24,318 bases of DNA from a virus (IMGVR_UViG_2740892258_000019); one strand, 5' to 3'; shown: positions 1 to 24,318, numbered from the stretch's first letter. Program-made: numbers and translations. Notes: generated by a model from the letters alone, not told the origin.

Positions 1-336
1 TCAATCTCCCCCGGCTGAAACCGGAACCATCTCGCCAGCAGCCCCTGCGCCTGCGTCAGCGCCCTGGTTGCTCTCACCCATCCCCGTGATGAGCTGAAAT
101 CGTTTCTGTAACTGCAGGTAATCAGCCAGATCCATATTGTCGAGATCTTCCGGGAGAAGACCAGTACTGCGGGCAATCAGCGGTTCGTCCCAGTCTGCCG
201 GGTTTTTGCTGATTTTGCGCACCTGCTTCAGGTCTTTTACCGTCAGGCGTTTCAGTTCAACCAGCTCAATTCTGGTACCTGCAGCAGTGGTGAAGGGATA
301 AGACAATTTAAAAGTATCGGATGGGGTCTGTGACAT
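1..336 (-). CDS. phage tail assembly protein (Mu gp41 position), assigned by synteny
   Basis: 111-aa ORF whose stop codon is the first 3 bases of the window; lies downstream of sheath and tube genes on the minus strand; Gly/Ala/Asp-rich C-terminus; no diagnostic motif. Confidence 0.4.
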   Translation of the reverse strand: MSQTPSDTFKLSYPFTTAAGTRIELVELKRLTVKDLKQVRKISKNPADWDEPLIARSTGLLPEDLDNMDLADYLQLQKRFQLITGMGESNQGADAGAGAAGEMVPVSAGGD

Positions 337-412
337 GATTGTGCTCCTGTGTAAGTTCAGGGCAGTATGTCGGGAGAAGCGCGTGACGGATATTAAAGGA
401 GATTAAGAAGAA

Positions 413-426
413 GGGGCCGGAGCCCC
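413..426 (-). terminator. short GC hairpin (GGGGC-N4-GCCCC) followed by T-rich tract on the minus strand; possible attenuator after tail tube cluster
   Basis: Read directly: ggggccggagcccc, with ttcttcttaatctcc following on the minus strand; stem is only 5 bp. Confidence 0.25.
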
Positions 427-433
427 TGTGATG

Positions 434-715
434 TCAGCAAGTGCGAAACCCCTTGCAGTTACGCAGGAAAGCGATGAGAAGCGTCTTTCCCTCAGATTTG
501 CCGATGCCGGAGAACCAGTGGTCGGGAGGCTCCCATGCTTCAATCAAATCCGCCAGTTTGCGGGCCTTTGAACGTGTGCAGTCAATCGGGTCATTGGTTT
601 TACGGGTATTAAAAAGGGTTTCCACCCCCGGAATATCAAGGAGGGTAAACCACGTACCATTTGACATGCCCAGTGCCGCACATCGTCCTCCTTTATCCGT
701 CAGTTCAACACTCAC
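434..715 (-). CDS. hypothetical phage protein in tail module
   Basis: 93-aa ORF whose ATG lies 3 bp after the tail tube stop (tight coupling); no recognisable motif. Confidence 0.35.
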   Translation of the reverse strand: MSVELTDKGGRCAALGMSNGTWFTLLDIPGVETLFNTRKTNDPIDCTRSKARKLADLIEAWEPPDHWFSGIGKSEGKTLLIAFLRNCKGFRTC

Positions 716-717
716 CG

Positions 718-1239
718 TCAGCCCCCGATATTGATACGGTAGTCAGTCAGTTGATCAACACCGCCGACCCGGAAGATGTTGGCCAGATAGTCCAGTTGCA
801 GCAGCTCTTCACCATCCAGTACCTGTCTGATATACGTGCAGGTGAAGCTACTGGAGAACTCGGCGTTCTCGTGCTGTTTGAACGTCCCCAGCGGGTTCTT
901 CTTGAACATAATCGTCAGGAAGGTGACCAGCGGGATTTCGTCAATCAGCCCCTGCGAGCTGTAGCGCTGGACGCTGGAACGACACTGCAGTGCCAGCGAC
1001 CTGTACGGGTTCGCGGCAGACAGCATCGCATCGCGGTAAAAGCTGTTCCATTTGATTTCGCCTTCCAGTTTGTCAAAACCAGCCGGGAGTTCCACCTTAC
1101 CCACCATCCCCAGCGCCTTGTGTTCCTGCATAATCATGGAGACATCGGGGAGTTTAACTTCCTCAGCCCGTCCCAGCAGGTTAGTACCATCCAGATAGAT
1201 GTTGGCATTCGTGATGCGGTTTATCTCAATCTTTGACAT
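718..1239 (-). CDS. phage tail tube protein (Mu gpM-like)
   Basis: 173 aa, immediately downstream of and translationally coupled to the sheath gene; size and position typical of contractile-tail tube proteins. Confidence 0.7.
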   Translation of the reverse strand: MSKIEINRITNANIYLDGTNLLGRAEEVKLPDVSMIMQEHKALGMVGKVELPAGFDKLEGEIKWNSFYRDAMLSAANPYRSLALQCRSSVQRYSSQGLIDEIPLVTFLTIMFKKNPLGTFKQHENAEFSSSFTCTYIRQVLDGEELLQLDYLANIFRVGGVDQLTDYRINIGG

Positions 1240-2666
1240 CAGTTGCCCCCTTTCAGGGTTAACAGGTATTCCGAGGTGATCTCAGTCTCAAACGTCAGTC
1301 GCTCCAGCGGCGGTGGTGGCGTATATTTGTAGCTCAGCAACAGGTGCCCGGCGGCCAGCTCCGTCTCCGGATTGCGGGCCGGATCAAACCAGCAACGGAA
1401 GCCCAGTACCGCACCATCACCAGTCATTTTGCGACCGTAGGCGTTGACCGACTCCGTCAGTGCATCAATCAGCGCCTGAGTAATCGGCATGTCGATGTAC
1501 TGCTGGCTGAAATAACGAATGGACTCGTTGATCACATCACCGGTGCGGCGAACGTTCTCAAAGTTACGCATATGGGTGACCGTTGGCCATGCTGCCGTCC
1601 GGTTACCCCACAGACGAAGGCCGCTGCCGTAACTGCTGAATACCGTGGTGATCCCCTGTTCGTTAAGCAGGTTCACCTCACTCTGCGGGTCATCAATCAT
1701 CGCGGACAGCTGGCGCTCCACGCCGGTGATCCCCAGAATCTCCTGATTGGAGGATGACCACCAGTAGCCCTTGTCCAGATCGACTCTGGCACGCAGACCT
1801 GCTGCACGCTGGCTGAGCGGCTCCAGACGCTCTGTGTTTGTCACCGGGTCATATACCTTCACATGCGGATAGCACAGACGGACGCGGTCGGAGCTGGTAT
1901 TGAAGTTGATGGTGCCTTCCGGGCCACGACCTGCCAGAGCCTGTGCAAAGGTGGTACCGACAGGCGCATCAATGTAGGTTACCGCGCCCAGCTTCTCTGC
2001 CATGGCGATAAGCTCAACTGCGACACTCTTCTGGGTGCAGAACACCGGCGCAATCAGAATTTTGGCGAAATAGCCGTACAGGTTGAAGCTGTCGTTAAGC
2101 AGCTTCATGCCGGTTCGGTTTCCGGCGCTGTTCACCCCGCCGATGATGTCCGCCGCAGTCACCTTCGACGGGTCCGCGTACTCATAGCTCACCTTCACGC
2201 TGCCACCGGCCTCAATAGCCTTGCCCAGGTTCGTGAGCACACCCGCCTGCGCATCAACACGGTAGTCCGTGTTCGCCGTGTGGGTGGTGCTGCCTTCACT
2301 GTTTTTCACCACCACATTAGCGACAACCGGATGCGCCAGTCTGGCCTGCCCTGTCGATTTGTCAAAGGTAACCACCTCATCCTCGATCGCCGTTTTATGT
2401 TTCGCCGGGTCGAGGACGTTAATGACCAGAACGGTGCCTGCACCATGGTCATAAATCGCATCCAGCGCCTGCGGAATGGTAAAGCCGGTGAACTGGCTGC
2501 CAAATGCCGCTGCGTCTTTCTCAGACAGGCACTGTACCAGCGTATTGACATCCCCCATCGGGGCGGTACCAATCAGGCCAATAACGGCAGATTTCACCGT
2601 TTTAACCGGGCGGGCACCGTTTTCCACCTCAATGGTTTCGGGACCATGCAGATAGTTAGCTGCCAT
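1239..2666 (-). CDS. phage tail sheath protein (Mu gpL-like)
   Basis: 475-aa ORF; N-terminus MAANYLHGPETIEVENGARPV...IGLIGTAP resembles the conserved sheath N-terminus of Mu/P2-type contractile tails (recalled, not searched). Confidence 0.85.
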   Translation of the reverse strand: MAANYLHGPETIEVENGARPVKTVKSAVIGLIGTAPMGDVNTLVQCLSEKDAAAFGSQFTGFTIPQALDAIYDHGAGTVLVINVLDPAKHKTAIEDEVVTFDKSTGQARLAHPVVANVVVKNSEGSTTHTANTDYRVDAQAGVLTNLGKAIEAGGSVKVSYEYADPSKVTAADIIGGVNSAGNRTGMKLLNDSFNLYGYFAKILIAPVFCTQKSVAVELIAMAEKLGAVTYIDAPVGTTFAQALAGRGPEGTINFNTSSDRVRLCYPHVKVYDPVTNTERLEPLSQRAAGLRARVDLDKGYWWSSSNQEILGITGVERQLSAMIDDPQSEVNLLNEQGITTVFSSYGSGLRLWGNRTAAWPTVTHMRNFENVRRTGDVINESIRYFSQQYIDMPITQALIDALTESVNAYGRKMTGDGAVLGFRCWFDPARNPETELAAGHLLLSYKYTPPPPLERLTFETEITSEYLLTLKGGN

Positions 2667-2910
2667 GGGTGTCCTCCGTTTTCACTTCGCTGTCACTGCT
2701 GCTTCTGCGCTTTGGTGACTGCACAGCCGGTGTGCCGGCGGGTTTAGTCTCTTCAGGTACCGGCGTCAGATGTTTCAGCGCCACCAGTACCTTCACGTAG
2801 TCATGCTCCTCCGGCAGGGAAACCGTCTTCCCCGGCCAGAGCAGGATTTCGGTTCCGTCCGACAGCGTGACGCCGCTGGCCGGGCCGGAATAGCGGTATT
2901 CTTTCATCAC
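2656..2910 (-). CDS. small Mu-like structural-module protein (Mu gp38 position)
   Basis: 84-aa ORF overlapping the sheath start by 11 bp; located between head-completion and sheath genes. Confidence 0.5.
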   Translation of the reverse strand: MMKEYRYSGPASGVTLSDGTEILLWPGKTVSLPEEHDYVKVLVALKHLTPVPEETKPAGTPAVQSPKRRSSSDSEVKTEDTHGS

Positions 2911-3371
2911 TCGCTTTCCTCATAGTTCACTTCGGTTAACAGCGGGCCGGACGGTAAATCGCTGTCTTCGATAAAGACGCTTTCAGTCGCGAAGTCGAGG
3001 GCGTACTGCCACAGCCCCCTGACTTCACCGATAAACACCTCGCGGGTCAGCCAGATACGGCGGCGGCAGCCGGGCGGGGTGTGGCCACCGAGAATGCGGC
3101 GGACAGCATCCAGGACATTAATCGCCCCTTTTTTACCGTTGAGCTGGCGGAAGACCACCGTGACGCAGAGCTGGATAGTCTGAGACTGGATCACCGCACC
3201 GGTATCATCCGGCCTGTCAAAGCGCGAACCGGCATAGCTCAACAGCAACGCGCCAACCGGATGGTTCAGGCGATATTCAGCCGGTTTCTCCGGGAAGTAC
3301 TCCACCTGCAGTTGCGGCAGCTTCTCGCGTAACCGGGCCAGTACCGCATCAAGGACGGGCAGAACGTTCAT
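2907..3371 (-). CDS. Mu gp37-like head-tail joining/completion protein
   Basis: 154-aa ORF, translationally coupled to neighbours; assignment by Mu gene order. Confidence 0.5.
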   Translation of the reverse strand: MNVLPVLDAVLARLREKLPQLQVEYFPEKPAEYRLNHPVGALLLSYAGSRFDRPDDTGAVIQSQTIQLCVTVVFRQLNGKKGAINVLDAVRRILGGHTPPGCRRRIWLTREVFIGEVRGLWQYALDFATESVFIEDSDLPSGPLLTEVNYEESE

Positions 3372-3817
3372 CAGTATTTCTCCAGTAAACCGTCACGACC
3401 GCCGAAAGTGGCCGGGCGACTGCGTACACGAAACTCGCCAGGCTCAGGCACATCTTTCTGAGTGGACGGCAGCCCCAGCGTGAGCCTGTTATCACGTAAC
3501 TCCCTGAGTTGCCGCAGCGCTTCTTTGTGGTCATCCTTCACCGTATCCGGGAGGTCACCTTCCGGGCGGCGGGCGTAGAGCCGGTAACGGACCAGCGTGA
3601 TGGCAATGTCCCGCAGAACAGTCGGTATCTCTGCCAGTGGCAGGATATAGCGTCCGCGCAGATGGGCATCAATCAGCTCGTCGGCATAGCGGATACAGCT
3701 GTCCACCACACGGGTATTCACTGTTGCAGGCGAGTCGAAGTCCATCTCTTCACTGGTGAGTTCGATAAGCGTCCGCTCCGGCACCTGCGCAAGCAAATCC
3801 TCCAGGGTGCAGTACAT
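3371..3817 (-). CDS. Mu gp36-like protein (DUF1320-type)
   Basis: Start re-chosen at internal ATG (MYCTLEDLL...) 1 bp after the stop of the upstream gene; the track ORF extends further 5-prime and overlaps that gene. Confidence 0.55.
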   Translation of the reverse strand: MYCTLEDLLAQVPERTLIELTSEEMDFDSPATVNTRVVDSCIRYADELIDAHLRGRYILPLAEIPTVLRDIAITLVRYRLYARRPEGDLPDTVKDDHKEALRQLRELRDNRLTLGLPSTQKDVPEPGEFRVRSRPATFGGRDGLLEKY

Positions 3818-3818
3818 G

Positions 3819-4157
3819 TCACACCCCGCGCAGGATACGAATGACGTCGCCTTCACCCCCGGCTTCATCAAGTGCAATACCACAGGATTTACCGTCGCCG
3901 GACTGCGGCACGGCTCTGGCCTGAGCATCTGACTGAACAGCCACACCACGGCTGACAGCGGCCCCGGCCTCGACAGCAATAATGCCCAGAACGCTCACCG
4001 GCGTGCTGTCGCCGGTAACAGCATCCACTTCGGCAACCCCGAGCGCTGCGGCACCGGCTTTACAGGGGGTATTATCTGCCCCGACAAAACGCTGCTGTGT
4101 CAGTGCGGCCCCTGCCGTTACGGTTGTGATCAGAATGACCTGCTGAGTGGTTCCCAT
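3819..4157 (-). CDS. Gly/Ala-rich small head protein (possible decoration/cement protein)
   Basis: 112-aa ORF directly downstream of the major capsid gene; low-complexity Ala/Gly/Val-rich sequence. Confidence 0.45.
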   Translation of the reverse strand: MGTTQQVILITTVTAGAALTQQRFVGADNTPCKAGAAALGVAEVDAVTGDSTPVSVLGIIAVEAGAAVSRGVAVQSDAQARAVPQSGDGKSCGIALDEAGGEGDVIRILRGV

Positions 4158-4166
4158 AACGCCTCC

Positions 4167-5120
4167 TTATTTACTGATACCGGTGATGAGATACCCGGCA
4201 TCGCCACCAACCACGGCGACTTTGTAGATATCGGTATAACGGCAGTACTTCACCTTGCCACCGGCTCCGTCGTATTTGTCAGCAACAGGCATCCCCTTAC
4301 GACGCAGGGTGTAGCCGAAGGACGGCTCGTTCTCGTCCGCGCTGTCCGCCCCGGGCTGCGGTTTGCCGACATAGTGCAGCATCAGGTTGTCTCCCCAGAT
4401 ATCCGCCGGCACGCTGTCCTTATCCATTGCCGCTTTCATGGACGGCAGGGAGACAGGCGCACCGATGACGATCTCTTCGATCTGAAAGAGGTCCTGCAGG
4501 ATTTCTGTGGTGATGCGCTTGCGTTCGTTGGCTCCGATGGCAGCCTGAAGTGCCGGATGGAACTTCAGCAGCGCCATCACGCCGGCACCCATGGTCATCA
4601 GGTTAGGACGCAGCCCCGTGGCCGTACGGACCGCTTCCATACCGGCTTCAATCACCCCGATGGGGTCCCCCTTACCACCGGCCCAGCGATCACTGGCTGT
4701 CAGTTTTTTAACGTGCCCGGTACGGTAGACCTTTTGATCCTGAGCCAGACGGGCGGCGATAAGTTCACGGCGCAGGTTCACGCCATTCGTGGCGCGACGG
4801 ATGGCCTTGCTCTCTTCGTTAAACATGGACTCCGCCTGTTCGCGGTAATCCACCGGTGCTGCCAGATCGTGTTCACCCAGCACCAGATCCAGTGTGCCGG
4901 TTTTCTCACGGACCAGAACATTGCTGTCCGCCCCGACGGCACGCTCAGTGTCATATTCCACAAAGGCGGTTTTCCCGAAGGTCGGCACACGCACGCCTTC
5001 CTTGTCCGTCAGCACGACGGGGAAAATACGTTCGCCAATGAATGCGGCATTTTTATAGCCTCGGGCGATACTGGTCAGTACCGGATCAACGACACGTTTA
5101 CCTTTTAAGTAATCAGACAT
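4167..5120 (-). CDS. major capsid protein (Mu gpT family)
   Basis: 317 aa, size and position (after I protease/scaffold) match Mu T; sequence pattern recalled as Mu-like major head subunit. Confidence 0.85.
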   Translation of the reverse strand: MSDYLKGKRVVDPVLTSIARGYKNAAFIGERIFPVVLTDKEGVRVPTFGKTAFVEYDTERAVGADSNVLVREKTGTLDLVLGEHDLAAPVDYREQAESMFNEESKAIRRATNGVNLRRELIAARLAQDQKVYRTGHVKKLTASDRWAGGKGDPIGVIEAGMEAVRTATGLRPNLMTMGAGVMALLKFHPALQAAIGANERKRITTEILQDLFQIEEIVIGAPVSLPSMKAAMDKDSVPADIWGDNLMLHYVGKPQPGADSADENEPSFGYTLRRKGMPVADKYDGAGGKVKYCRYTDIYKVAVVGGDAGYLITGISK

Positions 5121-5134
5121 GATTTCTCCTTAAA

Positions 5135-6250
5135 TTACAGGCAGCGTGCGACAGCAGCCTCATAGCTGATGCCTTCTTTTTTGGACAGGGCCACTGCTTT
5201 CTGATGCAGGGCCAGACGCTCAGGATCGGCTTCCGCAAACTCCGCCACATCCACCTTCACCGTGTCGCCGACACGCTCCTTTGTGGCCTGTTCGGCGAAA
5301 TTCATCACCGGCTCCCCGTCGGAGAGCAATGAACGGAAGGCGGTGGCCAGCGGCGTGCGGCTTTCCCCCTCAGCAAACTCCACCGGCTTGTCGCCACCGG
5401 CGACGGCATCCAGCAGGGCAACCACCACGGAGGAGGCGCGGGGAGCCAGACGCCCCTCTGCGACCAGTTTTTCTGCAAAGGCCACATTGTCCTTATGCAG
5501 TTGCTCCTGTCTGGCCTGTGCATCACGCGCATCGCGATCAGCAGCCTGCTGCTTCAGGCGGCGGTTCTCCTCCTGAAGGGCTTCAATCTCTTCTTTTGTC
5601 ATCGATGATTCCTCGTTACTTGCGGAAGACGGCACCTGGCCTGTCTCACTGAATTGTGCACCTGCTGCATCCTGCGACGGTGCGTCGCGGTACGCCTCTT
5701 CGCGCAGATTGTTGAGCTGCCATTCCGGCAGGACTTTTTCTGCTTCGTCCAGACTGAAGCGGGCGATCAGAAAATCGCGCAGCTTTCCCCACAGGGAGGC
5801 ATTCGTGATGGCCTGCCAGTCGGCGAACTCCACCACACCTTCTTCCTGCTCACTGAAGGACACCTGTTTCAGCCCCTTGACGGAAGGTGGCTGTGCCCCG
5901 AGAAAGCCCACATGGCGCAGGTAGAGCACGCCGGGCTTCGGATTGGACGGTGAATCCGGGAGGTAGAAAGAGGCGGACACTTTTTTGAATCGTCCGTTGG
6001 TGACCATCTCAGCAAACTGCGGGTCCAGCTGGGCAGGCTCTGCCATCAGATCGACGCCGCTGAGCGACAGGGCTTTCACCCAGCCCCACGCCGGGTCTTC
6101 CGTTCTGGGATGACCAATCACGAGTGGTGCTTCATGGACGGACGGGTCATAGGCTTTCACGCAGGCGGCAAGATCGTCTGGCGTGAACGGCAGTTTTTTG
6201 CCGTGCATATCGGTATGAGTACCGGCTTTAAAAATGTGAATGGCTGACAT
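5135..6250 (-). CDS. Mu I-like head maturation protease/scaffold protein
   Basis: 371 aa; N-terminal MSAIHIFKAGTHTDMHGKK...FTPDDL pattern typical of Mu-like prophage I protein; charged coiled-coil scaffold-like C-terminal half. Confidence 0.8.
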   Translation of the reverse strand: MSAIHIFKAGTHTDMHGKKLPFTPDDLAACVKAYDPSVHEAPLVIGHPRTEDPAWGWVKALSLSGVDLMAEPAQLDPQFAEMVTNGRFKKVSASFYLPDSPSNPKPGVLYLRHVGFLGAQPPSVKGLKQVSFSEQEEGVVEFADWQAITNASLWGKLRDFLIARFSLDEAEKVLPEWQLNNLREEAYRDAPSQDAAGAQFSETGQVPSSASNEESSMTKEEIEALQEENRRLKQQAADRDARDAQARQEQLHKDNVAFAEKLVAEGRLAPRASSVVVALLDAVAGGDKPVEFAEGESRTPLATAFRSLLSDGEPVMNFAEQATKERVGDTVKVDVAEFAEADPERLALHQKAVALSKKEGISYEAAVARCL

Positions 6251-6464
6251 TTTGCTGTCCCGCGTTATGTTGTCGGAGACAGTTTGTGAGAAATGCAGGC
6301 CCGGCGATTTTAATCTGCTTTAGAAAACATCAGGGGAGAAGGACAGGGAAAGCAATGCGGTGAACCGGAAGCGGTTATAAAACAGAGGCTGTAAAGCCTT
6401 TATAAAGGTAATACAGCCCCTCATTCGCTGGCAATGATAAATCACCCGCCTGAAGAGAGAAAAC
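6251..6464 (-). promoter_or_regulatory. intergenic leader upstream of gene I (candidate late promoter) containing a perfect 12-bp palindrome CCTTTATAAAGG at 6397-6408
   Basis: Only sizeable intergenic gap inside the head module; Mu has a C-activated late promoter upstream of I; palindrome read directly. Confidence 0.35.
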
Positions 6465-6923: not shown

Positions 6924-6925
6924 TG

Positions 6926-10258: not shown

Positions 10259-10268
10259 GGTGCTGCTG

Positions 10269-12884: not shown

Positions 12885-12886
12885 GA

Positions 12887-15450: not shown

Positions 15451-15452
15451 GA

Positions 15453-16938: not shown

Positions 16939-17026
16939 TTGAACATATCTCAATTTGACACACTCATTTGGGTGTGTACAATAGACCCAATAGAGTACAT
17001 CATAACCTAACAGGAACACGGTGCAT
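16939..17026. promoter_or_regulatory. divergent repressor/ner promoter-operator region with ACACAC-N8-GTGTGT inverted repeat (16958-16977)
   Basis: 88-bp AT-rich gap between divergently transcribed repressor and ner; repeat read directly. Confidence 0.45.
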
Positions 17027-18373: not shown

Positions 18374-19555
18374 ATGCTGGTACTGAAGCAGCAACTGAAA
18401 GAGGCCCGTATTCCACAGGCGGTGGTGGCGAGAGCTGTCGATGTTTCTGAGGCCACGCTGGCCCAGATTGTGAATCATAACGCGTGGCCCCGCACCAGCC
18501 CCGGAGAAGTGCGCCGGCGTCTTGCGTCCTGGCTGGAAAGTCAGGGGATTGATACAACGAAGAGTTTTGATGCTGTACAGGGCGCGGCCACGCCCCGTAC
18601 AGCGGGTACCACAGATAAAACGAGCCTCAGTGAGGAAGAGAATATGTTACTCAAAAAACAGGTGTTATTTCCAGCAACCAAAAAAGCGTTTGGTCTTTTC
18701 CGTGACCCGTTCGCCGACGAAGCCATGCAGGGTTCTGATGATGTGTTCACCACCCCGGATATTCGCTACGTGCGTGAGGCGTTGTACCAGACAGCCCGTC
18801 ATGGTGGGTTTATGGCCGTCATCGGTGAGTCCGGTGCGGGTAAATCCACGCTGCGCCGCGACCTGACTGAACGTATCAACCGCGAGAATGCGCCGGTAAT
18901 TGTTATCGAGCCATACATCATCGCTATGGAAGACAACGATGTGAAAGGGAAAACCCTGAAGGCAGCAGCGATTGCCGAAGCCATTATCAGTACCATCGCA
19001 CCACTGGAAAGCATCAGACGCAGTCAGGACGCCCGCTTTCGCCAGTTGCATCGCGTCCTGAAAGACAGCAGCCAGGCGGGGTTCAGCCACGTTCTGGTGA
19101 TTGAGGAGGCCCACAGTCTGCCCATTCCGACACTGAAACACCTCAAACGGAAACACCTCAAACGCTTTTTTGAGCTGGAGTCCGGTTTCAAAAAACTGCT
19201 GTCCATCGTGCTGATTGGCCAGCCGGAACTGGCGACAAAACTGTCTGAACGCAATATGGAAGTCCGTGAAGTCGTTCAGCGCTGTGAGGTGGTCGAACTT
19301 CTGCCTCTGGACAATAACCTTGAAGAGTTTCTGACGTTCAAACTGCAACGGGCCGGTAAACAACTGACGGACATTATGGACGCCAGCGCAGTGGATGCCA
19401 TACGTGCCCGCCTGAGCAATCCGGGAAGTCATCGTAAAAATATGGTCAGCCTGCTGTATCCGCTGGCCGTCAGTAACCTGGTAATAGCCGCCATGAATCT
19501 GGCCGCTGAAATCGGGGTTCCACAGGTCAACGCTGACGTTGTCAAAGGGGTTTAA
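18374..19555 (+). CDS. Mu B-like transposition ATPase (AAA+; Walker A GESGAGKST, Walker B VLVIEEAH)
   Basis: Start at ATG after GAGGAGGG; 393 aa; contains 5-aa tandem repeat KHLKR x2. Confidence 0.8.
   Translation: MLVLKQQLKEARIPQAVVARAVDVSEATLAQIVNHNAWPRTSPGEVRRRLASWLESQGIDTTKSFDAVQGAATPRTAGTTDKTSLSEEENMLLKKQVLFPATKKAFGLFRDPFADEAMQGSDDVFTTPDIRYVREALYQTARHGGFMAVIGESGAGKSTLRRDLTERINRENAPVIVIEPYIIAMEDNDVKGKTLKAAAIAEAIISTIAPLESIRRSQDARFRQLHRVLKDSSQAGFSHVLVIEEAHSLPIPTLKHLKRKHLKRFFELESGFKKLLSIVLIGQPELATKLSERNMEVREVVQRCEVVELLPLDNNLEEFLTFKLQRAGKQLTDIMDASAVDAIRARLSNPGSHRKNMVSLLYPLAVSNLVIAAMNLAAEIGVPQVNADVVKGV
19135..19164. repeat. perfect 15-bp tandem duplication (2 copies), in frame, inside B gene
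   Basis: gaaacacctcaaacg at 19135-19149 repeated exactly at 19150-19164. Confidence 0.9.
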
Positions 19556-19557: not shown

Positions 19558-19827
19558 ATGAAATCCACCACAGGTATCAACCAGCAAATCAGCAAAGTGC
19601 AGTCAGCCATTATGGCGCTTAAGGCGACGAACACGGATGTACAAAGCATCACCATCAGGGGTAACAAACCTGTCATCCGCGTTTCCCGGAGTGCGCATTG
19701 CATGCGCATGCTTGAGCAGGGAAAGGCCTGTTATCTGTATACCGGTCATGACCACAGGGGACATTTCCGTCAGGGCGTTTTCGAACTGCACGGCTGTCGC
19801 GTCGTGTGGCCGGAATCTTTGTGGTAA
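19558..19827 (+). CDS. hypothetical early protein (Cys/His-containing)
   Basis: 89-aa ORF starting 3 bp after the B stop; Mu kil position by synteny only. Confidence 0.45.
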   Translation: MKSTTGINQQISKVQSAIMALKATNTDVQSITIRGNKPVIRVSRSAHCMRMLEQGKACYLYTGHDHRGHFRQGVFELHGCRVVWPESLW

Positions 19828-19854
19828 TCAGCACAACAGGAGGAGTCATAAAAT

Positions 19855-20385
19855 ATGGCAAAAAGTACAAAAGGGGCAAAACGTATCAAAGCCGCAGCAG
19901 CACTCTGGGTGCCGGGGACACGCGAAGAGGTCATTGAGGGAATCAGACTGCTTGGTGACGCGCAACGTGAACTGGTCAGGGCTGAAACAGAAATGAATGA
20001 CACCATTGGCGACATCACTGCACGTTATGCCCCGCTCACCGAGAGCCTGAAAAAACGCATGGCCGAACTGCAGTCCGGTATCCAGACATGGTGTGAGGCG
20101 CACCGTGATGAACTGACCGGCAACGGGAAGGTGAAGTTCGCTAACCTCACCACCGGCGAGGTGCAGTGGCGAAACCGTCCGCCGTCAGTCAGCATTCGCG
20201 GGGCGGATAATGTTATTGAATTACTGAGACGTCTGGGGCTTGAGCGCTTTATTCGTGTAAAGGAGGAAATAAATAAAGATGCCATTCTGAATGAAAAAGA
20301 GGCTGTGAAAAATATTCCCGGTATTACCATAAAAAGTGATATTGAGGATTTTTCAATAATTCCTTTTGAGCAGGATGTGCAGTAA
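19855..20385 (+). CDS. gam: Gam host-nuclease inhibitor (Mu Gam / Ku-like DNA-end-binding protein)
   Basis: 176 aa; strong SD AGGAGGAG; N-terminal MAKSTKGAKRIKAAAALWVP... and C-terminal ...GITIKSDIEDFSIIPFEQ closely resemble my recollection of Mu Gam. Confidence 0.85.
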   Translation: MAKSTKGAKRIKAAAALWVPGTREEVIEGIRLLGDAQRELVRAETEMNDTIGDITARYAPLTESLKKRMAELQSGIQTWCEAHRDELTGNGKVKFANLTTGEVQWRNRPPSVSIRGADNVIELLRRLGLERFIRVKEEINKDAILNEKEAVKNIPGITIKSDIEDFSIIPFEQDVQ

Positions 20386-20482
20386 ACACACCACGTTAAT
20401 TATTTAATAAAAACATTTTCTTTTTTATTCCGGCGTCAGCGCCGCGGGCTTCTGCACGCCGGAAACAGAGGAGAATTAAATT

Positions 20483-20677
20483 ATGATATTTAAATGTATT
20501 CAGTGCGAGAGGGATATAACAGCCCTGCGTTTTCACAGCGCCATCGCCGTGATGTCCGGTAAGTATCACATACCTGCAGTACGTGTCACCCTGGTCTGCC
20601 CGTACTGCAGCCAGCATTTTTCGGCGGACGTGCCCGTCATAGAATTCTCCCGCCCTGACAGGGAGGACGCGCAATGA
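20483..20677 (+). CDS. small zinc-ribbon-like protein (CxxC ... CxxC)
   Basis: 64 aa; Cys pairs CIQC and CPYC; SD GAGGAG upstream. Confidence 0.5.
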   Translation: MIFKCIQCERDITALRFHSAIAVMSGKYHIPAVRVTLVCPYCSQHFSADVPVIEFSRPDREDAQ

Positions 20678-20946
20678 TTACCCCACAGGAAGCACGACAG
20701 CGCACCCGAACTCTTGTTGAACACTATGTCAACGAGTGTGAATGCCGCGACCTCACCGATGTGAAGCACGTCCTGACGGCGCTAATCAGCATGGCCACAC
20801 AGGCCATTGTGGCGACCAACGGAAAGGAGGCTGCCCTGCAGGTACTGATGAACACACTCACCCACACGGCAGAGCATGAGGTGCCGTACCGGATGGAAAC
20901 CACTGCAGAAGGCGGCCTGCACATCACCGTCAGCCGGAAGCACTGA
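20674..20946 (+). CDS. hypothetical early protein
   Basis: 90-aa ORF, start overlapping upstream stop; no motif recognised. Confidence 0.45.
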   Translation: MITPQEARQRTRTLVEHYVNECECRDLTDVKHVLTALISMATQAIVATNGKEAALQVLMNTLTHTAEHEVPYRMETTAEGGLHITVSRKH

Positions 20947-20955
20947 GGGCGCGGC

Positions 20956-21252
20956 ATGACACGAAACACCGAACTCACCCGCACCGCCCTCTACCGTCTG
21001 GCCCTGCAGCGTTTCGGGCCGGACGCACAGGCCCTGAAACTGACAGAAGAGGCCGCTGAACTGGCGGCCAGTGCTGCCCGCAATCTGAACGGACAGGGCA
21101 GCGAAAGTGACCTCGCGGCAGAGCTGGCAGACGTGGAAATCATGACAGAGCAACTGCGCCTTCAGGGGATGGACCGGCTGATTGACTTCCACAAACAGAA
21201 AAAACTGGAACGTCTGGCTGCACGACTGGGCGTGATTTACACGAACGAGTAA
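20956..21252 (+). CDS. MazG-like nucleotide pyrophosphohydrolase domain protein
   Basis: 98 aa with EEAAELAAS and ELADVEIM motifs typical of all-alpha MazG/HisE-type NTP pyrophosphatases. Confidence 0.55.
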   Translation: MTRNTELTRTALYRLALQRFGPDAQALKLTEEAAELAASAARNLNGQGSESDLAAELADVEIMTEQLRLQGMDRLIDFHKQKKLERLAARLGVIYTNE

Positions 21253-21266
21253 CCGGGAGGCATTCA

Positions 21267-21482
21267 ATGGCTGACATACTCAGGGAAATCACCGCATGGA
21301 CACTGATTCTTACTGGCCTGGCGACATGCCTCAGTGCGGGGGCAGCCCTGGCTGCCCTGCTGATGCACATAACAACACAGTGGTTATGGGAAAAGCTTAA
21401 AGCAGCATACAGCCTGAAAGAGCTGTCCGACGCTGTCCGGGCATGGAAACGGCAGAAAAATACCGGAGATACAGAACAATGA
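21267..21482 (+). CDS. small membrane protein
   Basis: 71 aa with one hydrophobic helix (WTLILTGLATCLSAGAALAALL); coupled to neighbours. Confidence 0.45.
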   Translation: MADILREITAWTLILTGLATCLSAGAALAALLMHITTQWLWEKLKAAYSLKELSDAVRAWKRQKNTGDTEQ

Positions 21483-22162
21483 CAGACCAGAATAAACACA
21501 TTGAGAAACTGAAAAAGTTGCTGGCGCTGGCCGCATCCGGCAACCCGCACGAGGCCGCTCTGGCACTGCGCCGAGCCCGTAAACTGATGGATGTTCACGG
21601 CATCACACATTCCGACATTGCTATGAGTGATATTGATGAAACCATCAGTCATTACTGGCCGACAGGCAGTCTCCGTCCACCGCGCTACATGCTGGGCCTG
21701 ATGAACATCATCCGCGAGGCATTTGGTGTTAACTCCATCATTCACCCCGGCACGCATCCGTCTGTGGGGTTCTACGGTAACCGGGAACGAGCGGCACTGG
21801 CTGCGTACACCTGGGAAGTGCTGGTCCGCCAGCTGAAAAAGGCGCGTCAGCAGTATATCAGCGCACAGAACAAAAGAATAAAAAACGCCACCCGTACCAG
21901 CCGTGGAGACCAGTTTGCTGAAGGCTGGGTACTGGCCGTTATCAGTGAAATACAGTCCTTTGCCCTGACCGATGATGAGCGTGAACTGATGCAACAGTGG
22001 CTGGAACATAAATACCCGCAGACGCAAACCACCAGGGCGCGTAAACCGGGAAGAAGCCGCAATGGCGACGCCTCGCGCTATGCGGGGTTTCGTGAAGGGC
22101 AGAACGTCAGACTGCACCGCCCGGTCAGTGGGCAGGAACAACAGAAACTGGAGGCCAGATGA
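21479..22162 (+). CDS. early-region protein with DUF2786-like N-terminal motif
   Basis: Start re-chosen at ATG (MTDQNKHIEKLKKLLALAASGNPHEAALALRRARKLM...) overlapping upstream stop (ATGA), GGAGA SD. Confidence 0.55.
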   Translation: MTDQNKHIEKLKKLLALAASGNPHEAALALRRARKLMDVHGITHSDIAMSDIDETISHYWPTGSLRPPRYMLGLMNIIREAFGVNSIIHPGTHPSVGFYGNRERAALAAYTWEVLVRQLKKARQQYISAQNKRIKNATRTSRGDQFAEGWVLAVISEIQSFALTDDERELMQQWLEHKYPQTQTTRARKPGRSRNGDASRYAGFREGQNVRLHRPVSGQEQQKLEAR

Positions 22163-22389
22163 TTACGCTATCAGGTAACAGCCGGAAATTAAAAGCCTGC
22201 CGAATATCTGCCAGATACCTTTTTGCCCGCGCCTTTTTTAAGAACGTCAGGCCGGGGATCACAATTGGTGTTATTGCCGGACGCGAACAGGTTGAAAAAT
22301 ACATGTCAGGTGCATGGTGGAATAACGACCCTGTCATTGCTGCCCGTAATATTCATATCGAATGGGGAGGTATTCAGAATGACTACTGA
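22159..22389 (+). CDS. hypothetical early protein
   Basis: 76-aa ORF with GGAGG SD and ATGA overlap with upstream gene. Confidence 0.45.
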   Translation: MITLSGNSRKLKACRISARYLFARAFFKNVRPGITIGVIAGREQVEKYMSGAWWNNDPVIAARNIHIEWGGIQNDY

Positions 22390-22585
22390 AACCATTGTCT
22401 GTTTTCTTTTCTGGTATATGTACGCAGGATCATGCAGCGCAAGACTTCATCGTTCCCTGGGCTATGGCAGGCACTACGACACCGCGCATTACATCCTGTA
22501 CATGACCGCCGTCATGTTGTTCTGGCCAGTCACCCTGCCAGCTGCAACCGACATTGTTGCCGACAGACTGAAAAAAAGGAGATGA
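22379..22585 (+). CDS. small two-helix membrane protein
   Basis: 68 aa from ATG after GGAGG; hydrophobic segments IVCFLFWYMYAG and ILYMTAVMLFWPV. Confidence 0.45.
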   Translation: MTTETIVCFLFWYMYAGSCSARLHRSLGYGRHYDTAHYILYMTAVMLFWPVTLPAATDIVADRLKKRR

Positions 22586-22586: not shown

Positions 22587-23036
22587 ATGCAGAAAAAACG
22601 CCTGATACAGCTTATCCATATTGCCCGTAATGAACTGGGTATGGATGAAGACACCTACCGCCAGATGTTACAGGGGCTGACCGGTAAAGCCTCAACCAAA
22701 GGAATGGATACCACACAACTAAACTGCGTGCTGGAATCCATGAAAAAGAAAGGCTTTCGCGTTAAACCAGCCAGAAAAGCCAGCTCCGGTTTACCGCTGG
22801 ATAACCATCCGCAGTCCAGGAAAATTCGTGCGCTATGGCTTGAAATGGCTGCTGCCGGCATTGTTCGTGACCGTTCAGAAAATGCATTAGCGCGGTGGAT
22901 CAAGCGGGAAACGGGCATCAGCGCCCTGCGCTGGCTCAATACTGAACAGGCAAGCAGTGTTATTGAGAAACTGAAGAAGTGGCAGCACAGAGCTGCGGGA
23001 GTAAAACATGAGCGACCTGAATCAGTTTCGAAGTAA
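22587..23036 (+). CDS. gemA: GemA-like protein (Mu gp16 family, DUF1018-type)
   Basis: 149 aa; N-terminal LIQLIHIARNELGMDEDTYRQML pattern and position immediately upstream of mor. Confidence 0.6.
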   Translation: MQKKRLIQLIHIARNELGMDEDTYRQMLQGLTGKASTKGMDTTQLNCVLESMKKKGFRVKPARKASSGLPLDNHPQSRKIRALWLEMAAAGIVRDRSENALARWIKRETGISALRWLNTEQASSVIEKLKKWQHRAAGVKHERPESVSK

Positions 23037-23406
23037 AGGGCCGGAACTCCTGGTGGAGCTGGCACAGCATACCTCTGAGACCGTTCGCGAGATTATTGAT
23101 ATTGAGCCCGCAATTGCCGACCAGATTGGTCAGGCCGTCGCGAACCGAATGATGCAGGTCTGGGGCGGGCAAAACGTTTATTTCCCGATGGGCATGGTAT
23201 GGAAGGTCAGTCAGCGCGACCGGGAAATCTTCAGGGAGTTTAACGGACGCAACCACCACGAACTGGCCCGCAAGTTTGGTGTTTCGCTTCAGTGGGTCTA
23301 CAGCGTGGTTAAGCGGGTCAGAAAAGAAGAACTGGATCGGATGCAGGGCAGGTTGTTTGATGAAGATCTGCCAGAGGAGACGAAAGACGTTAACAAATCC
23401 AGATAA
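23008..23406 (+). CDS. mor: Mor/C-family transcriptional activator (middle-operon activator)
   Basis: 132 aa; GGQNVYFP and REFNGRNHHELARKFGVSLQWVY motifs match the Mor/C family HTH region. Confidence 0.75.
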   Translation: MSDLNQFRSKGPELLVELAQHTSETVREIIDIEPAIADQIGQAVANRMMQVWGGQNVYFPMGMVWKVSQRDREIFREFNGRNHHELARKFGVSLQWVYSVVKRVRKEELDRMQGRLFDEDLPEETKDVNKSR

Positions 23407-23450
23407 TTCCTGCTTGTTAAAGTCCTTTCAAAAATCTCCTTATTGTATAA

Positions 23451-23483
23451 AAGCACGGTAGACCCCTTACCGTGCTTTTTTTA
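23451..23483 (+). terminator. rho-independent terminator downstream of mor
   Basis: aagcacggta-gacccct-taccgtgctt followed by a T-run, read directly. Confidence 0.8.
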
Positions 23484-23520
23484 TGCTCTCTCTTTAGTAT
23501 TCAGGATGCAGGGAGAAAAT

Positions 23521-24153
23521 ATGTTTGACGTTTCGTTGTTAAATCTGCCATGGGCAACACTGGTGACCCTGACCAGTGGCTATATTGGGTATTTTATTGC
23601 GAATGTGGGACTGAAGGATCACCACAAGCCCATTGAGGTGACTTTTTCTTCGCTGATTTTTGGCCTGACAGCAATGATGGCTTACCAGGCTGTTATGTGG
23701 GCAGGTCTGAATGCCTGGCTGGCAACACCACCAGCACTTCTGTGTGCCGTTACATGCGGTGCGTGGTGGCGCAGGTACGGTCGCAAATGGATGTACAGAT
23801 TACTGTGGAATAATGATGTTTCATGGTCTGACGATACCAGCTCAGCATGGCAGGCAATGTTTGATCAAACAGGCTTCAGCGTTACCGAGGTCAGAGTGAT
23901 TCTTCGCGATGGTTCCGGTATGATGTCACGGCTGCCAGGGAACTTTGAAGAGTGGCCTAACGGTCCGTTTACCCTGGGGAATAAAGGCGATATGGTTCTT
24001 TACGTCACGCACAGCAGCCCTTCAGGCAGTAACGAATGGGAAGAGTATAAAGGCGTGGTTGATAAGTACTGGGGAGCTCTGGCAACCTATATTCCAGCAG
24101 ATCAGATTGCCAGAGTGGAGATCAGGCGCGTTCGTGCAACGAACGATGAATGA
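23521..24153 (+). CDS. membrane protein (three N-terminal TM helices + ~110-aa soluble C-domain), function unknown
   Basis: Start chosen at ATG after GGGAG; first gene after the mor terminator; no motif recognised. Confidence 0.55.
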   Translation: MFDVSLLNLPWATLVTLTSGYIGYFIANVGLKDHHKPIEVTFSSLIFGLTAMMAYQAVMWAGLNAWLATPPALLCAVTCGAWWRRYGRKWMYRLLWNNDVSWSDDTSSAWQAMFDQTGFSVTEVRVILRDGSGMMSRLPGNFEEWPNGPFTLGNKGDMVLYVTHSSPSGSNEWEEYKGVVDKYWGALATYIPADQIARVEIRRVRATNDE

Positions 24154-24159
24154 TGTTTA

Positions 24160-24318
24160 TTTTTTCCCTGGGGCAGGGGCTGCCGGCATAGTGGTTTTAT
24201 TGGCAGAGGAAGACGATTCTCCTTTTCTACCGGAATCGCGCTCGAACGTCACGATGTGCTTGCTTTTGGGCTTTTCTGAGTAATCCAGGCTATCATGCTT
24301 ATTGTTTTGAGTAGTCAT
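24160..24318 (-). CDS. small basic ORF convergent with upstream gene, abutting window edge (possibly partial)
   Basis: 53-codon ORF (MTTQNNKHDSLDYSEKPKSKHIVTFERDSGRKGESSSSANKTTMPAAPAPGKK) whose ATG is the last 3 bases of the window; below track cut-off. Confidence 0.25.

What the first reader, a model, noticed from the sequence alone, without database searches (positions are those of the whole stretch)
1..24318. Early and late modules diverge from a central control/cargo region, unlike colinear canonical Mu
In Mu the repressor is divergent from a single rightward early-middle-late transcription series. Here ner-A-B-gam-gemA-mor run on the plus strand toward the window end, while the lysis-terminase-head-tail series runs on the minus strand in the opposite direction, both starting from the 13.3-17.0 kb central module. 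This is either a distinct Mu-like lineage with divergent arms (I believe BcepMu-type phages are arranged this way but cannot verify it here), an inversion, or a junction of two elements. It also places the late activator C and both prophage ends outside the window.
Basis: partly seen in the sequence, partly recalled or inferred. Interest (0 to 1): 0.5.

Follow-up and report, generated by a model that had tools for sequence, protein, structure and literature searches.

The report
BcepMu-type prophage with divergent arms
The window is about two thirds of a BcepMu-like transposable prophage of E. coli, whose early and late genes normally point away from a central control region; this genome plan is already described and common in E. 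coli, so the layout is real but ordinary, and this copy also has broken transposase, terminase and endolysin genes.

Summary
Lysis, terminase, head and tail genes fill the minus strand of 1-13237. Early genes, from a ner-like gene to Mor, fill the plus strand of 17021-23406. A control and cargo module lies between them.

This is the native plan of BcepMu-type transposable phages, not a rearrangement or a chimera. Both arms are colinear with Burkholderia phage BcepMu. Escherichia phage PhiKM (filed under Bcepmuvirus) is 97.6% identical. 123 complete E. coli genomes hold at least 80% of the window as one same-strand match. Full copies sit at different chromosomal sites, with TG...CA ends and 6-bp target duplications. 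Of 68 species-level loci with this transposase type, 65 share the layout and 3 are colinear like Mu.

- "A" and "B" are not MuA/MuB homologues.
- "A" is only a two-piece remnant here.
- No separate C gene exists in this lineage. The single Mor/C-family gene is inside the window.
- Both prophage ends are outside the window; the Mor-side end is 196 bp beyond it.

Against its closest relative the window has no point differences but six indels. These may be real decay or draft-assembly artefacts. The low-GC cargo looks like a Type II PANGU defence pair.

The parts
1..6250 (-). Late arm, distal part: tail assembly protein (1-336), tail tube (718-1239), tail sheath (1239-2666), head-tail connector genes (2656-4157), major capsid protein (4167-5120) and Mu I-like protease/scaffold (5135-6250).
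   Evidence: tblastn hits to BcepMu gp32-gp41, in order and at 31-76% identity. PGAP names come from the otherwise identical N61 prophage.
6251..6464 (-). Intergenic region between the G and I homologues. It holds a promoter-like block GCAGATTAAAATCGCC (6303-6318) and a conserved palindrome CCTTTATAAAGG followed by GCTTTAC (6387-6408). It is a candidate internal late promoter and sits where Mu has its strong gyrase site.
   Evidence: The same blocks occur in Klebsiella KP12 and in BcepMu. The Mu gyrase site is annotated between G and I. The function is inferred.
6465..10823 (-). Head morphogenesis and packaging genes: G (6465-6923), F (6926-7747), portal (7728-9245, with a 21-bp in-frame tandem duplication at 9145-9165), TerL remnant (9245-10258, with a 289-bp frameshifting deletion at 10262|10263) and TerS (10269-10823).
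   Evidence: Pfam Portal_Mu E 3e-90. Terminase_6N matches only from profile position 73. Phage_Mu_Gp27 E 4e-44. Indels were mapped against N61.
10820..13237 (-). Start of the late arm: two small genes (10820-11457), spanin-like gene (11454-12104), SLT endolysin split by a 56-bp tandem duplication (12088-12603 and 12600-12884; the duplication lies at about 12594-12705) and holin (12887-13237).
   Evidence: Pfam SLT and Holin_2-3. BcepMu gp21-gp26 match in order. The duplication is shown.
13238..13484 (-). Late control region upstream of the holin gene. It holds a conserved block CACTATTAACGCTGTTTAAAATCC (13287-13310), with TAAAAT as a possible -10 element and no consensus promoter match to the block in the scan. 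It also holds a hairpin TGTCTCC...GGAGACA covering the holin Shine-Dalgarno sequence (13240-13265). This is the candidate Mor-dependent late promoter.
   Evidence: TTTAAAAT lies about 40-70 nt upstream of the holin start in 26 of 52 related loci, within otherwise divergent sequence. The hairpin folds at -12.2 kcal/mol. Mor dependence is inferred by analogy with Mu.
13485..14255 (+). D12-class (Dam-type) DNA adenine methyltransferase. It points against the late arm and overlaps the 3' end of the cargo gene by 11 bp.
   Evidence: Pfam MethyltransfD12 E 7e-28. PADLOC MTase_II E 4e-115.
14245..16460 (-). Low-GC cargo pair downstream of the repressor. One gene encodes a YejK/NA37 nucleoid-associated protein (15453-16460). 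The other encodes a 401-aa protein with an acidic N-terminal part and three C-terminal transmembrane segments (14245-15450). The architecture matches the Type II PANGU defence system.
   Evidence: NA37 E 1e-80. PDB YejK 9be2 E 7e-30. Charge and transmembrane profile. The same gene pair occurs in three other genera. PANGU is described in bioRxiv 10.64898/2026.04.06.716658. The pair is in only 19 of 5426 E. coli genomes.
16531..16938 (-). cI-type HTH repressor. It is on the same strand as the cargo and the late genes.
   Evidence: Pfam HTH_3 E 6e-12 and Phage_CI_repr E 2.5e-6. Its position matches BcepMu gp17.
16939..17026 (.). Divergent control region. It holds a near-consensus early promoter, TTGACA (16955-16960), a 16-nt spacer and TACAAT (16977-16982) on the plus strand. 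A dyad ACACAC...GTGTGT lies between the two hexamers and is a candidate operator.
   Evidence: The promoter scan matches 11 of 12 positions. The operator role is inferred.
17021..17251 (+). First early gene, a small HTH protein in the position of Mu ner.
   Evidence: phrog_8503, and a weak match to phrog_769 'transcriptional repressor'. HTH_35 E 0.004. No hit to Mu Ner.
17248..18363 (+). Remnants of three early genes. The first 135 nt of the gp12-like HTH gene are fused out of frame (17248-17421). The DUF3102 gene is missing entirely. Two transposase pieces remain in different frames (17445-18071 and 17983-18363). The deletion junctions are at 17382|17383 (1568 bp lost) and 17993|17994 (320 bp lost).
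   Evidence: Mapped against N61. Pfam rve matches from profile position 23 only. The pieces are 77% and 51% identical to BcepMu gp09. The 1568-bp junction is found in 0 of 5426 complete E. coli genomes.
18374..19555 (+). Transposition ATPase of the ExeA/AAA_22 type, the functional counterpart of MuB. It carries a 15-bp in-frame tandem duplication at 19135-19149.
   Evidence: AAA_22 E 3e-18. 58% identical to BcepMu gp08. The duplication is shown.
19558..22585 (+). Middle of the early arm: Gam (19855-20385), an NTP pyrophosphohydrolase-like gene (20956-21252), a DUF2786 gene (21479-22162) and several small genes of unknown function.
   Evidence: Phage_Mu_Gam E 1e-40, 62% identical to Mu Gam. PHROG matches. 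N61 annotation.
22587..23406 (+). GemA (22587-23036) and the only Mor/C-family activator (23008-23406), the last conserved genes of the early arm.
   Evidence: Pfam GemA E 1e-40 and Mor E 1e-43. There is a single Mor/C homologue per genome in N61, PhiKM, KP12 and BcepMu.
23443..24318 (.). Variable segment next to the prophage end: a membrane protein gene of unknown function (23521-24153, +) and a small ORF (24157-24318, -). The Mor-side prophage end lies 196 bp beyond the window.
   Evidence: Matches to most relatives stop at 23363-23366. phrog_12870. The end was located in the source contig.

Best explanation
The window is the central 24.3 kb of a roughly 38-kb BcepMu-type transposable prophage of E. 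coli, seen in reverse orientation relative to the BcepMu reference. In this lineage the whole immunity-plus-early module is inverted relative to Mu. The cI-type repressor and the late genes share one strand. The early operon reads outward to the other prophage end and finishes with the single Mor/C-family activator.

Likely mechanism:
1. In the lysogen the repressor (16531-16938) shuts the near-consensus early promoter at 16955-16982. It is co-transcribed with the cargo genes downstream of it.
2. On induction the early operon makes the ner-like regulator, the rve-type transposase, the ExeA-type ATPase, Gam, GemA and Mor.
3. Mor then acts back at the centre on a weak-promoter block upstream of the holin gene (13287-13310), and probably on a second block upstream of the protease/scaffold gene (6303-6318). 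This drives leftward late transcription. There is no separate C step.

Shown here: gene identities, order, strands, synteny, ends, target duplications and how widespread the layout is. Inferred: the operator, the Mor-dependent promoters and the two-step cascade.

This copy, as assembled, cannot transpose, package DNA or lyse the cell, because its transposase, TerL and endolysin genes are disrupted.
For: - tblastn places 19 of 21 late-arm ORFs and 6 early-arm ORFs on BcepMu in unbroken order. The late ORFs match the BcepMu plus strand and the early ORFs the minus strand, so the reverse complement of the window is colinear with BcepMu.
- Only 7 ORFs hit Mu. In Mu all 7 are on one strand; here they are split 4 and 3 between strands.
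- Lavigne et al. 2009 (PMC2771037) describe BcepMu as two clusters, genes 1-13 on the bottom strand and 17-52 on the top strand. They place the lysogeny control at the interface, followed by the lysis cassette. They also describe a Tn552/IS1604-type transposase unrelated to MuA.
- Escherichia phage PhiKM (taxonomy Bcepmuvirus) is 97.6% identical over 77% of the window. Klebsiella KP12_2 shows the same layout.
- 646 of 5426 complete E. coli genomes match, and 123 hold at least 80% of the window as one same-strand match.
- Full prophages in strain N61 (38,007 bp, inside a cysteine hydrolase gene) and strain KE50 (inside fliC) have 6-bp duplications, GCTATC and CTCAGA. Their ends read TGAT...ATCA and carry two GAGATAAAT/GCGATAAAT repeats at the same spacing as the BcepMu ends. 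Two further insertion sites were seen.
- 65 of 68 species-level loci with this transposase type have the divergent layout.
- There is a single Mor/C homologue per genome.
- A conserved promoter-like block lies upstream of the holin gene in 26 of 52 loci.
Against: - No experiment here shows the promoters, the operator or Mor dependence.
- The 'ner' assignment is positional only.
- By nucleotide identity the element is not close to BcepMu: megablast found no BcepMu match, and protein identities range from 26% to 77%. 'BcepMu-type' is therefore a family-level statement.
- Three relatives with the same transposase type are colinear like Mu, so the layout is not universal in the family.
- The gene disruptions may be assembly artefacts, in which case the real prophage could be functional.
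Confidence: 0.92

Rival explanations
1. A recent, strain-specific inversion of the early or late module in an originally colinear Mu-like prophage.
For: Colinear relatives with the same transposase type exist: L039, L045 and L074. Inversion of this module has therefore happened at least once in the family's history.
Against: The divergent layout is the same in BcepMu, PhiKM, KP12, 123 complete E. coli genomes and 65 of 68 species-level loci. Window 12646-17382, which spans both proposed junctions, matches the complete N61 genome apart from two positions at the 56-bp duplication boundary. No inverted repeats or IS elements were found at 13.3 or 17.0 kb.
Confidence: 0.02
2. A junction of two different elements, or a chimeric assembly, joined in the 13.3-17.0 kb region.
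For: GC drops to 40-43% at 14.2-16.5 kb. The source is a draft contig, CVOH01000150.1, which differs from its closest relative by six indels.
Against: Both arms match one phage, BcepMu. Complete genomes carry the whole unit bounded by one pair of ends and one target duplication, at different sites. The low-GC segment is a two-gene cargo cassette found in 19 genomes; in all those whose context was examined it lies in this prophage. None of the six indels lies at 13.3 or 17.0 kb.
Confidence: 0.02
3. This rival concerns the state of this copy, not the layout. The six indels are artefacts of the draft assembly, from scaffold joining or gap closing, and the real prophage is intact and identical to that of strain N61.
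For: There are no point differences from N61 over 24.3 kb apart from two positions at the 56-bp duplication boundary, yet there are six indels: +21, -289, +56, -1568, -320 and +15 bp. That ratio is very unlikely for natural decay. The deletion junctions have 0-1 bp of microhomology. The three insertions are exact tandem copies, as expected if overlapping contig ends were butted together. The contig ends 59 nt beyond the window start, inside the prophage. The 1568-bp deletion junction occurs in none of 5426 complete genomes.
Against: The contig contains no N runs. Deletions that inactivate the transposase, terminase and endolysin are what selection for a grounded prophage would favour. No reads were available for checking.
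Confidence: 0.5

Closest known systems
Burkholderia phage BcepMu (NC_005882; Summer et al. 2004, as summarised in PMC2771037)
   Same: - Two divergent gene clusters with the lysogeny control at the interface.
- The repressor is on the late-gene strand, followed by a cargo slot and then holin, SLT endolysin and spanin.
- Mu-type TerS, TerL, portal, F and G genes, and a P2-type tail.
- An rve/Tn552-type transposase next to an ExeA-type ATPase.
- GemA and a single Mor/C gene at the end of the early arm.
- TGA... termini carrying two repeats at the same spacing.
   Different: - No nucleotide-level match; protein identities are 26-77%.
- The middle early genes and the cargo differ. Here there are Gam, Dam and a NAP plus membrane-protein pair; BcepMu has gp18-20 and an acyltransferase.
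- The E. coli relatives carry an invertase and alternative tail-fibre genes, which BcepMu is said to lack.
Escherichia phage PhiKM (PQ738613, Bcepmuvirus) and the prophages of E. coli N61, G-002-25, KE50 and M-17
   Same: Same element. N61 is identical at every aligned base except two positions at the 56-bp duplication boundary. PhiKM is 97.6% identical over 77% of the window. Gene order is the same throughout.
   Different: The window has six indels that these copies lack. PhiKM carries a different central cargo and a different end-proximal segment.
Escherichia phage Mu (NC_000929)
   Same: Replicative-transposition lifestyle, inferred from the ends, the target duplications and the scattered insertion sites. 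Homologous Gam (62%), GemA, Mor, TerL, portal, F and G. The G-I intergenic region is near the middle of the genome.
   Different: - Mu is colinear: c is divergent from a single rightward series.
- No similarity to MuA or MuB was detected.
- Mu has both Mor and C; this lineage has one such gene.
- Mu makes 5-bp duplications (established knowledge); here they are 6 bp.
- Mu has its own tail genes; here the tail is P2-like.
Type II PANGU defence system (Pag2A and Pag2B; bioRxiv 10.64898/2026.04.06.716658). This applies to the cargo only.
   Same: A two-gene unit. The first gene encodes a YejK/NA37-type nucleoid-associated protein. The second follows after a 2-nt gap and encodes a protein with an acidic N-terminal part and a C-terminal transmembrane region.
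   Different: Sequence identity to the tested PANGU-Ecu system could not be checked, because its sequences are not held. No defence phenotype was tested here. PADLOC (2023) has no model for the system.

Membership tests
BcepMu-type transposable phages | Two oppositely oriented gene clusters (early versus lysis/head/tail) with the lysogeny control at their interface | tested here: met
   Strands and order. Colinear with BcepMu on both arms. The definition comes from PMC2771037.
BcepMu-type transposable phages | An rve (Tn552/IS1604-type) DDE transposase unrelated to MuA, next to an ExeA/AAA_22-type ATPase | tested here: met
   Pfam rve and AAA_22. The two genes are 77% and 58% identical to BcepMu gp09 and gp08, with no hit to Mu. 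The transposase gene is truncated in this copy.
BcepMu-type transposable phages | Mu-type packaging and head genes combined with a P2-type contractile tail | tested here: met
   Phage_Mu_Gp27 and Portal_Mu. Phage_Mu_F, Phage_sheath_1 and Phage_tube. The tail genes of N61 carry P2-type names: gpD, V, W, J, I, X.
BcepMu-type transposable phages | TG...CA termini with repeated transposase-binding sites, target-site duplication and many different insertion sites | tested here: met
   Tested in full-length relatives and in the source contig, not inside the window. The ends resemble those of BcepMu. 6-bp duplications occur at two sites. Four different insertion sites were seen.
BcepMu-type transposable phages | Nucleotide-level relatedness to BcepMu itself (same species or close genus member) | tested here: not met
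   Megablast of the window against 50,697 phage records gave no BcepMu match. Similarity is detectable only at the protein level. GenBank nevertheless files the 97.6%-identical PhiKM under Bcepmuvirus.
Mu-like phages in the strict sense (Muvirus) | Colinear early-middle-late series on one strand, with only the repressor divergent | tested here: not met
   The late genes are on the opposite strand from the early genes.
Mu-like phages in the strict sense (Muvirus) | MuA and MuB homologues, and separate Mor and C activators | tested here: not met
   No tblastn hit of the transposase or the ATPase to Mu. Only one Mor/C homologue occurs in the complete relatives.
Type II PANGU defence (cargo only) | A YejK/NA37-type nucleoid-associated protein encoded in a two-gene operon with an intergenic gap under 40 bp | tested here: met
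   NA37 E 1e-80. The genes end and start at 15453 and 15450, a 2-nt gap. The pairing is conserved in Paraburkholderia, Shewanella and Citrobacter.
Type II PANGU defence (cargo only) | A partner protein with an N-terminal acidic DNA-mimic (DMK) domain and a C-terminal transmembrane domain | tested here: inconclusive
   Residues 1-260 have pI 5.0 (39 D+E against 28 K+R). Three hydrophobic segments lie at 262-378. There is a weak KwaA-like match, E 8e-5.
Type II PANGU defence (cargo only) | Protection against phage that requires both genes | not testable with these tools
   This needs plaque assays. The preprint reports it for a UPEC-derived system.

The most novel reading that the evidence does not exclude
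The relative orientation of the immunity-plus-early module and the late module may be a variable character within one transposase family. Of 68 species-level loci with a BcepMu-type transposase, 65 are divergent and 3 are fully colinear like Mu: a Burkholderiaceae MAG, Rhodocyclus tenuis and a third MAG. In the clearest colinear case (the Burkholderiaceae MAG, L039) BcepMu-type holin, endolysin, TerS and portal genes follow directly after Mor. The module has therefore flipped at least once without loss of the phage. That would make the family a natural test of whether activation of late promoters by Mor, and the siting of the cargo slot downstream of the repressor, depend on genome geometry. 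I did not find this variation described, but my literature search was limited.
Probability: 0.35. Interest if true: 0.35.

Novelty: already known. Interest (0 to 1): 0.15.

Why it matters
The practical value is in annotation.
- Prophages of this kind occur in about 12% of complete E. coli genomes (646 of 5426). They should not be annotated on the Mu template.
- The transposase and ATPase are not MuA and MuB. There is no C gene to look for. The target duplication is 6 bp.
- The prophage ends lie beyond Mor on one side and beyond the tail fibres and invertase on the other.
- The layout places a cargo slot directly downstream of the repressor, where it should be expressed in the lysogen. Here that slot holds a likely Type II PANGU defence pair.
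- For this particular contig, six indels with essentially no point differences are a warning that 'defective prophage' calls from draft assemblies may reflect assembly errors.

Tried and rejected
- Exact search for the 1568-bp deletion junction in one genome per GTDB species: no match.
- The same junction as a 600-nt query against 5426 complete E. coli genomes: no full-length match. The deletion is therefore unique to the source assembly.
- PADLOC on the NA37 protein: nothing, even at E up to 10.
- PDB sequence search with the 401-aa protein: nothing.
- Pfam at E up to 10 on the 401-aa protein and the end-proximal membrane protein: only noise.
- Kiwa was considered for the cargo because of a weak KwaA match. 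It was rejected because the partner is NA37, not DUF4868, and the Kiwa paper mentions no nucleoid protein.
- A strict end-motif pattern found the ends of BcepMu, N61 and B. cenocepacia but none in the three colinear loci, so their left ends remain unmapped.
- The supplementary sequences of the PANGU preprint are not held.
- The terminator scan of the centre gave fewer hits than shuffled sequence. How repressor and cargo transcription is kept out of the lysis genes is unexplained.
Full report
**What is in the window.**

The minus strand of 1-13237 carries a lysis cassette, packaging and head genes, and tail genes:
- Lysis cassette: holin 12887-13237, SLT endolysin 12088-12884, spanin-like gene 11454-12104.
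- Packaging and head genes: Mu gp27-type TerS 10269-10823, TerL 9245-10258, Mu-type portal 7728-9245, F, G, an I-like protease/scaffold and the capsid gene.
- Tail genes: sheath 1239-2666 and tube 718-1239.

The plus strand of 17021-23406 carries:
- a small HTH gene in the ner position;
- transposase fragments;
- an AAA_22/ExeA ATPase;
- Gam, small early genes, GemA and Mor.

Between the arms lie a Dam-type methylase (+), two low-GC genes (-) and a cI-type repressor (-). GC skew changes sign near 17 kb. GC falls to about 40% at 14.2-16.5 kb.

**Where the window comes from.**
- The portal and ATPase proteins, each carrying a unique short duplication, are found on one public contig only. This is CVOH01000150.1 of the draft E. 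coli assembly GCA_001245225.1.
- The window equals contig positions 60-24377. Its second part (window 8374-24318) was verified base for base.
- The contig ends 59 nt beyond the window start.
- On the other side the prophage ends 196 bp beyond the window, at ...CATGTCTGATCA. Host DNA of the gapC-cybB region follows.

**The layout is the native plan of BcepMu-type phages.**
- tblastn of 43 window ORFs against Burkholderia phage BcepMu puts 19 of the 21 late-arm ORFs in unbroken order on the BcepMu plus strand.
- Six early-arm ORFs fall in order on its minus strand: the gp12-like regulator, two transposase pieces, the ATPase, GemA and Mor. The reverse complement of the window is therefore colinear with BcepMu on both arms.
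- Against Mu only seven ORFs give hits: G, F, portal, TerL, Gam, GemA and Mor. In Mu all seven are on one strand; here they are split 4 and 3 between strands.
- Lavigne et al. 2009 (PMC2771037) describe exactly this plan for BcepMu. Genes 1-13 lie on the bottom strand and include the regulators and a Tn552/IS1604-type transposase unrelated to MuA. The lysogeny control sits at the interface. A lysis cassette, Mu-like head genes and P2-like tail genes follow on the top strand.

**It is common and mobile as one unit.**
- Escherichia phage PhiKM, isolated from a uropathogenic strain and filed under Bcepmuvirus, is 97.6% identical over 77% of the window. Klebsiella KP12_2 has the same order.
- 646 of 5426 complete E. 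coli genomes match. 123 hold at least 80% of the window as one same-strand match.
- In strain N61 the full prophage is 38,007 bp and splits a cysteine hydrolase gene. In strain KE50 it splits fliC.
- Both copies have 6-bp duplications (GCTATC and CTCAGA). Both begin TGAT and end ATCA. Both carry two GAGATAAAT/GCGATAAAT repeats at each end, at the spacing seen at the BcepMu ends.
- Strain 12089 carries the prophage inside the J gene of another prophage.
A chimera or a strain-specific inversion is therefore excluded.

**Survey across species.**
- An alignment of four transposases retrieved 80 loci from one-genome-per-species contigs. They span Enterobacterales, Pseudomonas, Burkholderiales, Neisseriales and others.
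- In 68 of these loci late genes fall within the 10-kb flanks.
- 65 have them upstream of the transposase on the opposite strand, which is the divergent layout.
- 3 are colinear like Mu: L039, L045 and L074. In L039 the order is repressor(-), ner-like, gp12-like, DUF3102, transposase, ATPase, Gam, GemA, Mor, holin, SLT, TerS, TerL and portal, all but the first on one strand. These genes are 28-68% identical to the E. coli proteins.
- The divergent plan is therefore the rule in this family. The module has flipped at least once.

1. 'A' and 'B' are analogues of MuA and MuB, not homologues.
2. No C gene is missing. tblastn with Mu Mor, Mu C, BcepMu gp01 and the window's Mor finds exactly one locus in each of N61, PhiKM, KP12 and BcepMu. 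In the window it lies at 23008-23406.
3. The duplication is 6 bp, not 5 bp.
4. Both ends are indeed outside the window.

**State of this copy.** Aligned to N61, the window has no point differences apart from two positions at the 56-bp duplication boundary, but six indels (totals rechecked):

| Change | Position in window | Effect |
|---|---|---|
| +21 bp tandem copy | 9145-9165 | in frame, in the portal gene |
| -289 bp | 10262\|10263 | removes and frameshifts the start of TerL; Pfam Terminase_6N matches only from profile position 73 |
| +56 bp tandem copy | about 12594-12705 | frameshifts the endolysin gene |
| -1568 bp | 17382\|17383 | removes most of the gp12-like gene, all of the DUF3102 gene and the first 469 nt of the transposase gene |
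| -320 bp | 17993\|17994 | lies inside the transposase gene and frameshifts it |
| +15 bp tandem copy | 19135-19149 | in frame, in the ATPase gene |

- The invariant W-x-I-D motif of the transposase (D160 in alignment A1) lies upstream of the first usable start codon of the remnant.
- As assembled, the prophage cannot transpose, package DNA or lyse the cell.
- Six large indels with essentially no substitutions is not what natural decay usually looks like. The deletion junctions have 0-1 bp of microhomology, and the insertions are exact tandem copies. The 1568-bp junction occurs in none of 5426 complete genomes.
- I cannot decide between real decay and draft-assembly artefacts, and I rate them about equal. 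Neither alters the conclusion about the layout.

**Likely regulation (inferred).**
- The 88-bp divergent region holds a near-consensus promoter, TTGACA, a 16-nt spacer and TACAAT, at 16955-16982. It reads into the early arm. A dyad lies between the hexamers and could be the operator.
- Upstream of the holin gene lies the block CACTATTAACGCYGTTTAAAATCC. Its core TTTAAAAT is present at about the same distance in 26 of 52 related loci, although the surrounding sequence differs.
- BcepMu has AGCCGATTAAAAGACC upstream of both its holin gene and its I-like gene. The window has GCAGATTAAAATCGCC upstream of its I-like gene.
- A conserved -10-like TAAAAT (the consensus scan reported no promoter at this block) is what activator-dependent late promoters look like in Mu. 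Mor, made last in the early arm, is the obvious activator. That gives a two-step cascade.
- A hairpin covering the holin ribosome-binding site follows the block.

**The cargo.**
- The low-GC pair encodes a full-length YejK/NA37 protein, with E 7e-30 to PDB entry 9be2.
- The second protein has 401 residues, an acidic N-terminal part and three C-terminal transmembrane segments.
- The same pair sits side by side in Paraburkholderia next to an Mrr-type nuclease. It also occurs in Shewanella, and in a Citrobacter lambdoid prophage between the antiterminator Q gene and the holin gene.
- A 2026 preprint names this architecture Type II PANGU. It shows protection against T4 for a system from a UPEC strain.
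- Only 19 of 5426 E. coli genomes carry the pair. Relatives carry other genes in this slot.

**Verdict.** Interest is low. The side observations that might merit follow-up are the colinear minority in the family, the conserved late-promoter block and the suspicious indel pattern.

Noticed in passing
window 9145-9165, 10262|10263, 12594-12705, 17382|17383, 17993|17994, 19135-19149: Against the closest complete genome (E. coli N61) the window has essentially no point differences (only two positions, at the 56-bp duplication boundary) but six indels: +21, -289, +56, -1568, -320 and +15 bp. They disrupt TerL, the endolysin, a regulator gene, the DUF3102 gene and the transposase. The pattern suggests either draft-assembly artefacts or unusual decay.
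   Followed up: partly
window 14245-16460 (- strand): Low-GC cargo downstream of the repressor. It encodes a YejK/NA37 nucleoid-associated protein and a 401-aa protein with an acidic N-terminal part and C-terminal transmembrane segments. This matches the Type II PANGU defence architecture of a 2026 preprint. The pair is conserved in other genera and in a lambdoid prophage cargo site.
   Followed up: partly
L039 (Burkholderiaceae MAG), L045 (Rhodocyclus tenuis), L074 (MAG): Three relatives with a BcepMu-type transposase (54-68% identical) have a Mu-like colinear order; in L039 and L045 Mor is detected ahead of the late genes, and in L039 the holin, endolysin, TerS and portal genes follow on the same strand. 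The arm orientation therefore varies within the family.
   Followed up: partly
window 13240-13310 (- strand): A conserved block CACTATTAACGCYGTTTAAAATCC lies upstream of the holin gene. Its core is present in 26 of 52 related loci. A hairpin follows that pairs with the holin Shine-Dalgarno sequence. Relatives keep a hairpin there with different sequences, for example ATGCCGTC...GACGGCAT in BcepMu.
   Followed up: partly
window 6251-6464 (- strand): The G-I intergenic region carries a palindrome CCTTTATAAAGG followed by GCTTTAC. This is conserved from E. coli to Burkholderia. The region lies about 46-51% along the genome, which is where Mu has its strong gyrase site.
   Followed up: no
L003 87-98 and 38094-38105; L006 287-298 and 38294-38305: The target-site duplications of this prophage family are 6 bp (GCTATC and CTCAGA), not the 5 bp of Mu.
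   Followed up: yes
window 23443-24318: A second variable slot lies between Mor and the prophage end. It holds a 210-aa membrane protein (phrog_12870, no Pfam match) and a 53-aa ORF. Most relatives diverge from window position 23363-23366 onward.
   Followed up: no
window 14245-14255: The Dam-type methylase gene (+) and the 401-aa cargo gene (-) converge and overlap by 11 bp, with no terminator-like site between them. How repressor and cargo transcription is stopped before the lysis genes is unclear.
   Followed up: no
L003 171-3540; L002 24-1934: E. coli and Klebsiella relatives carry a DNA invertase and alternative tail-fibre and assembly genes at the tail-side end, resembling the Mu G segment. 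BcepMu is described as lacking a tail-fibre inversion system.
   Followed up: no
L002 (OM835952.1): The record 'Klebsiella phage KP12 clone KP12_2' is filed under Vequintavirinae, but it is a BcepMu-type transposable phage sequence. It is probably a co-assembled prophage rather than part of KP12.
   Followed up: no
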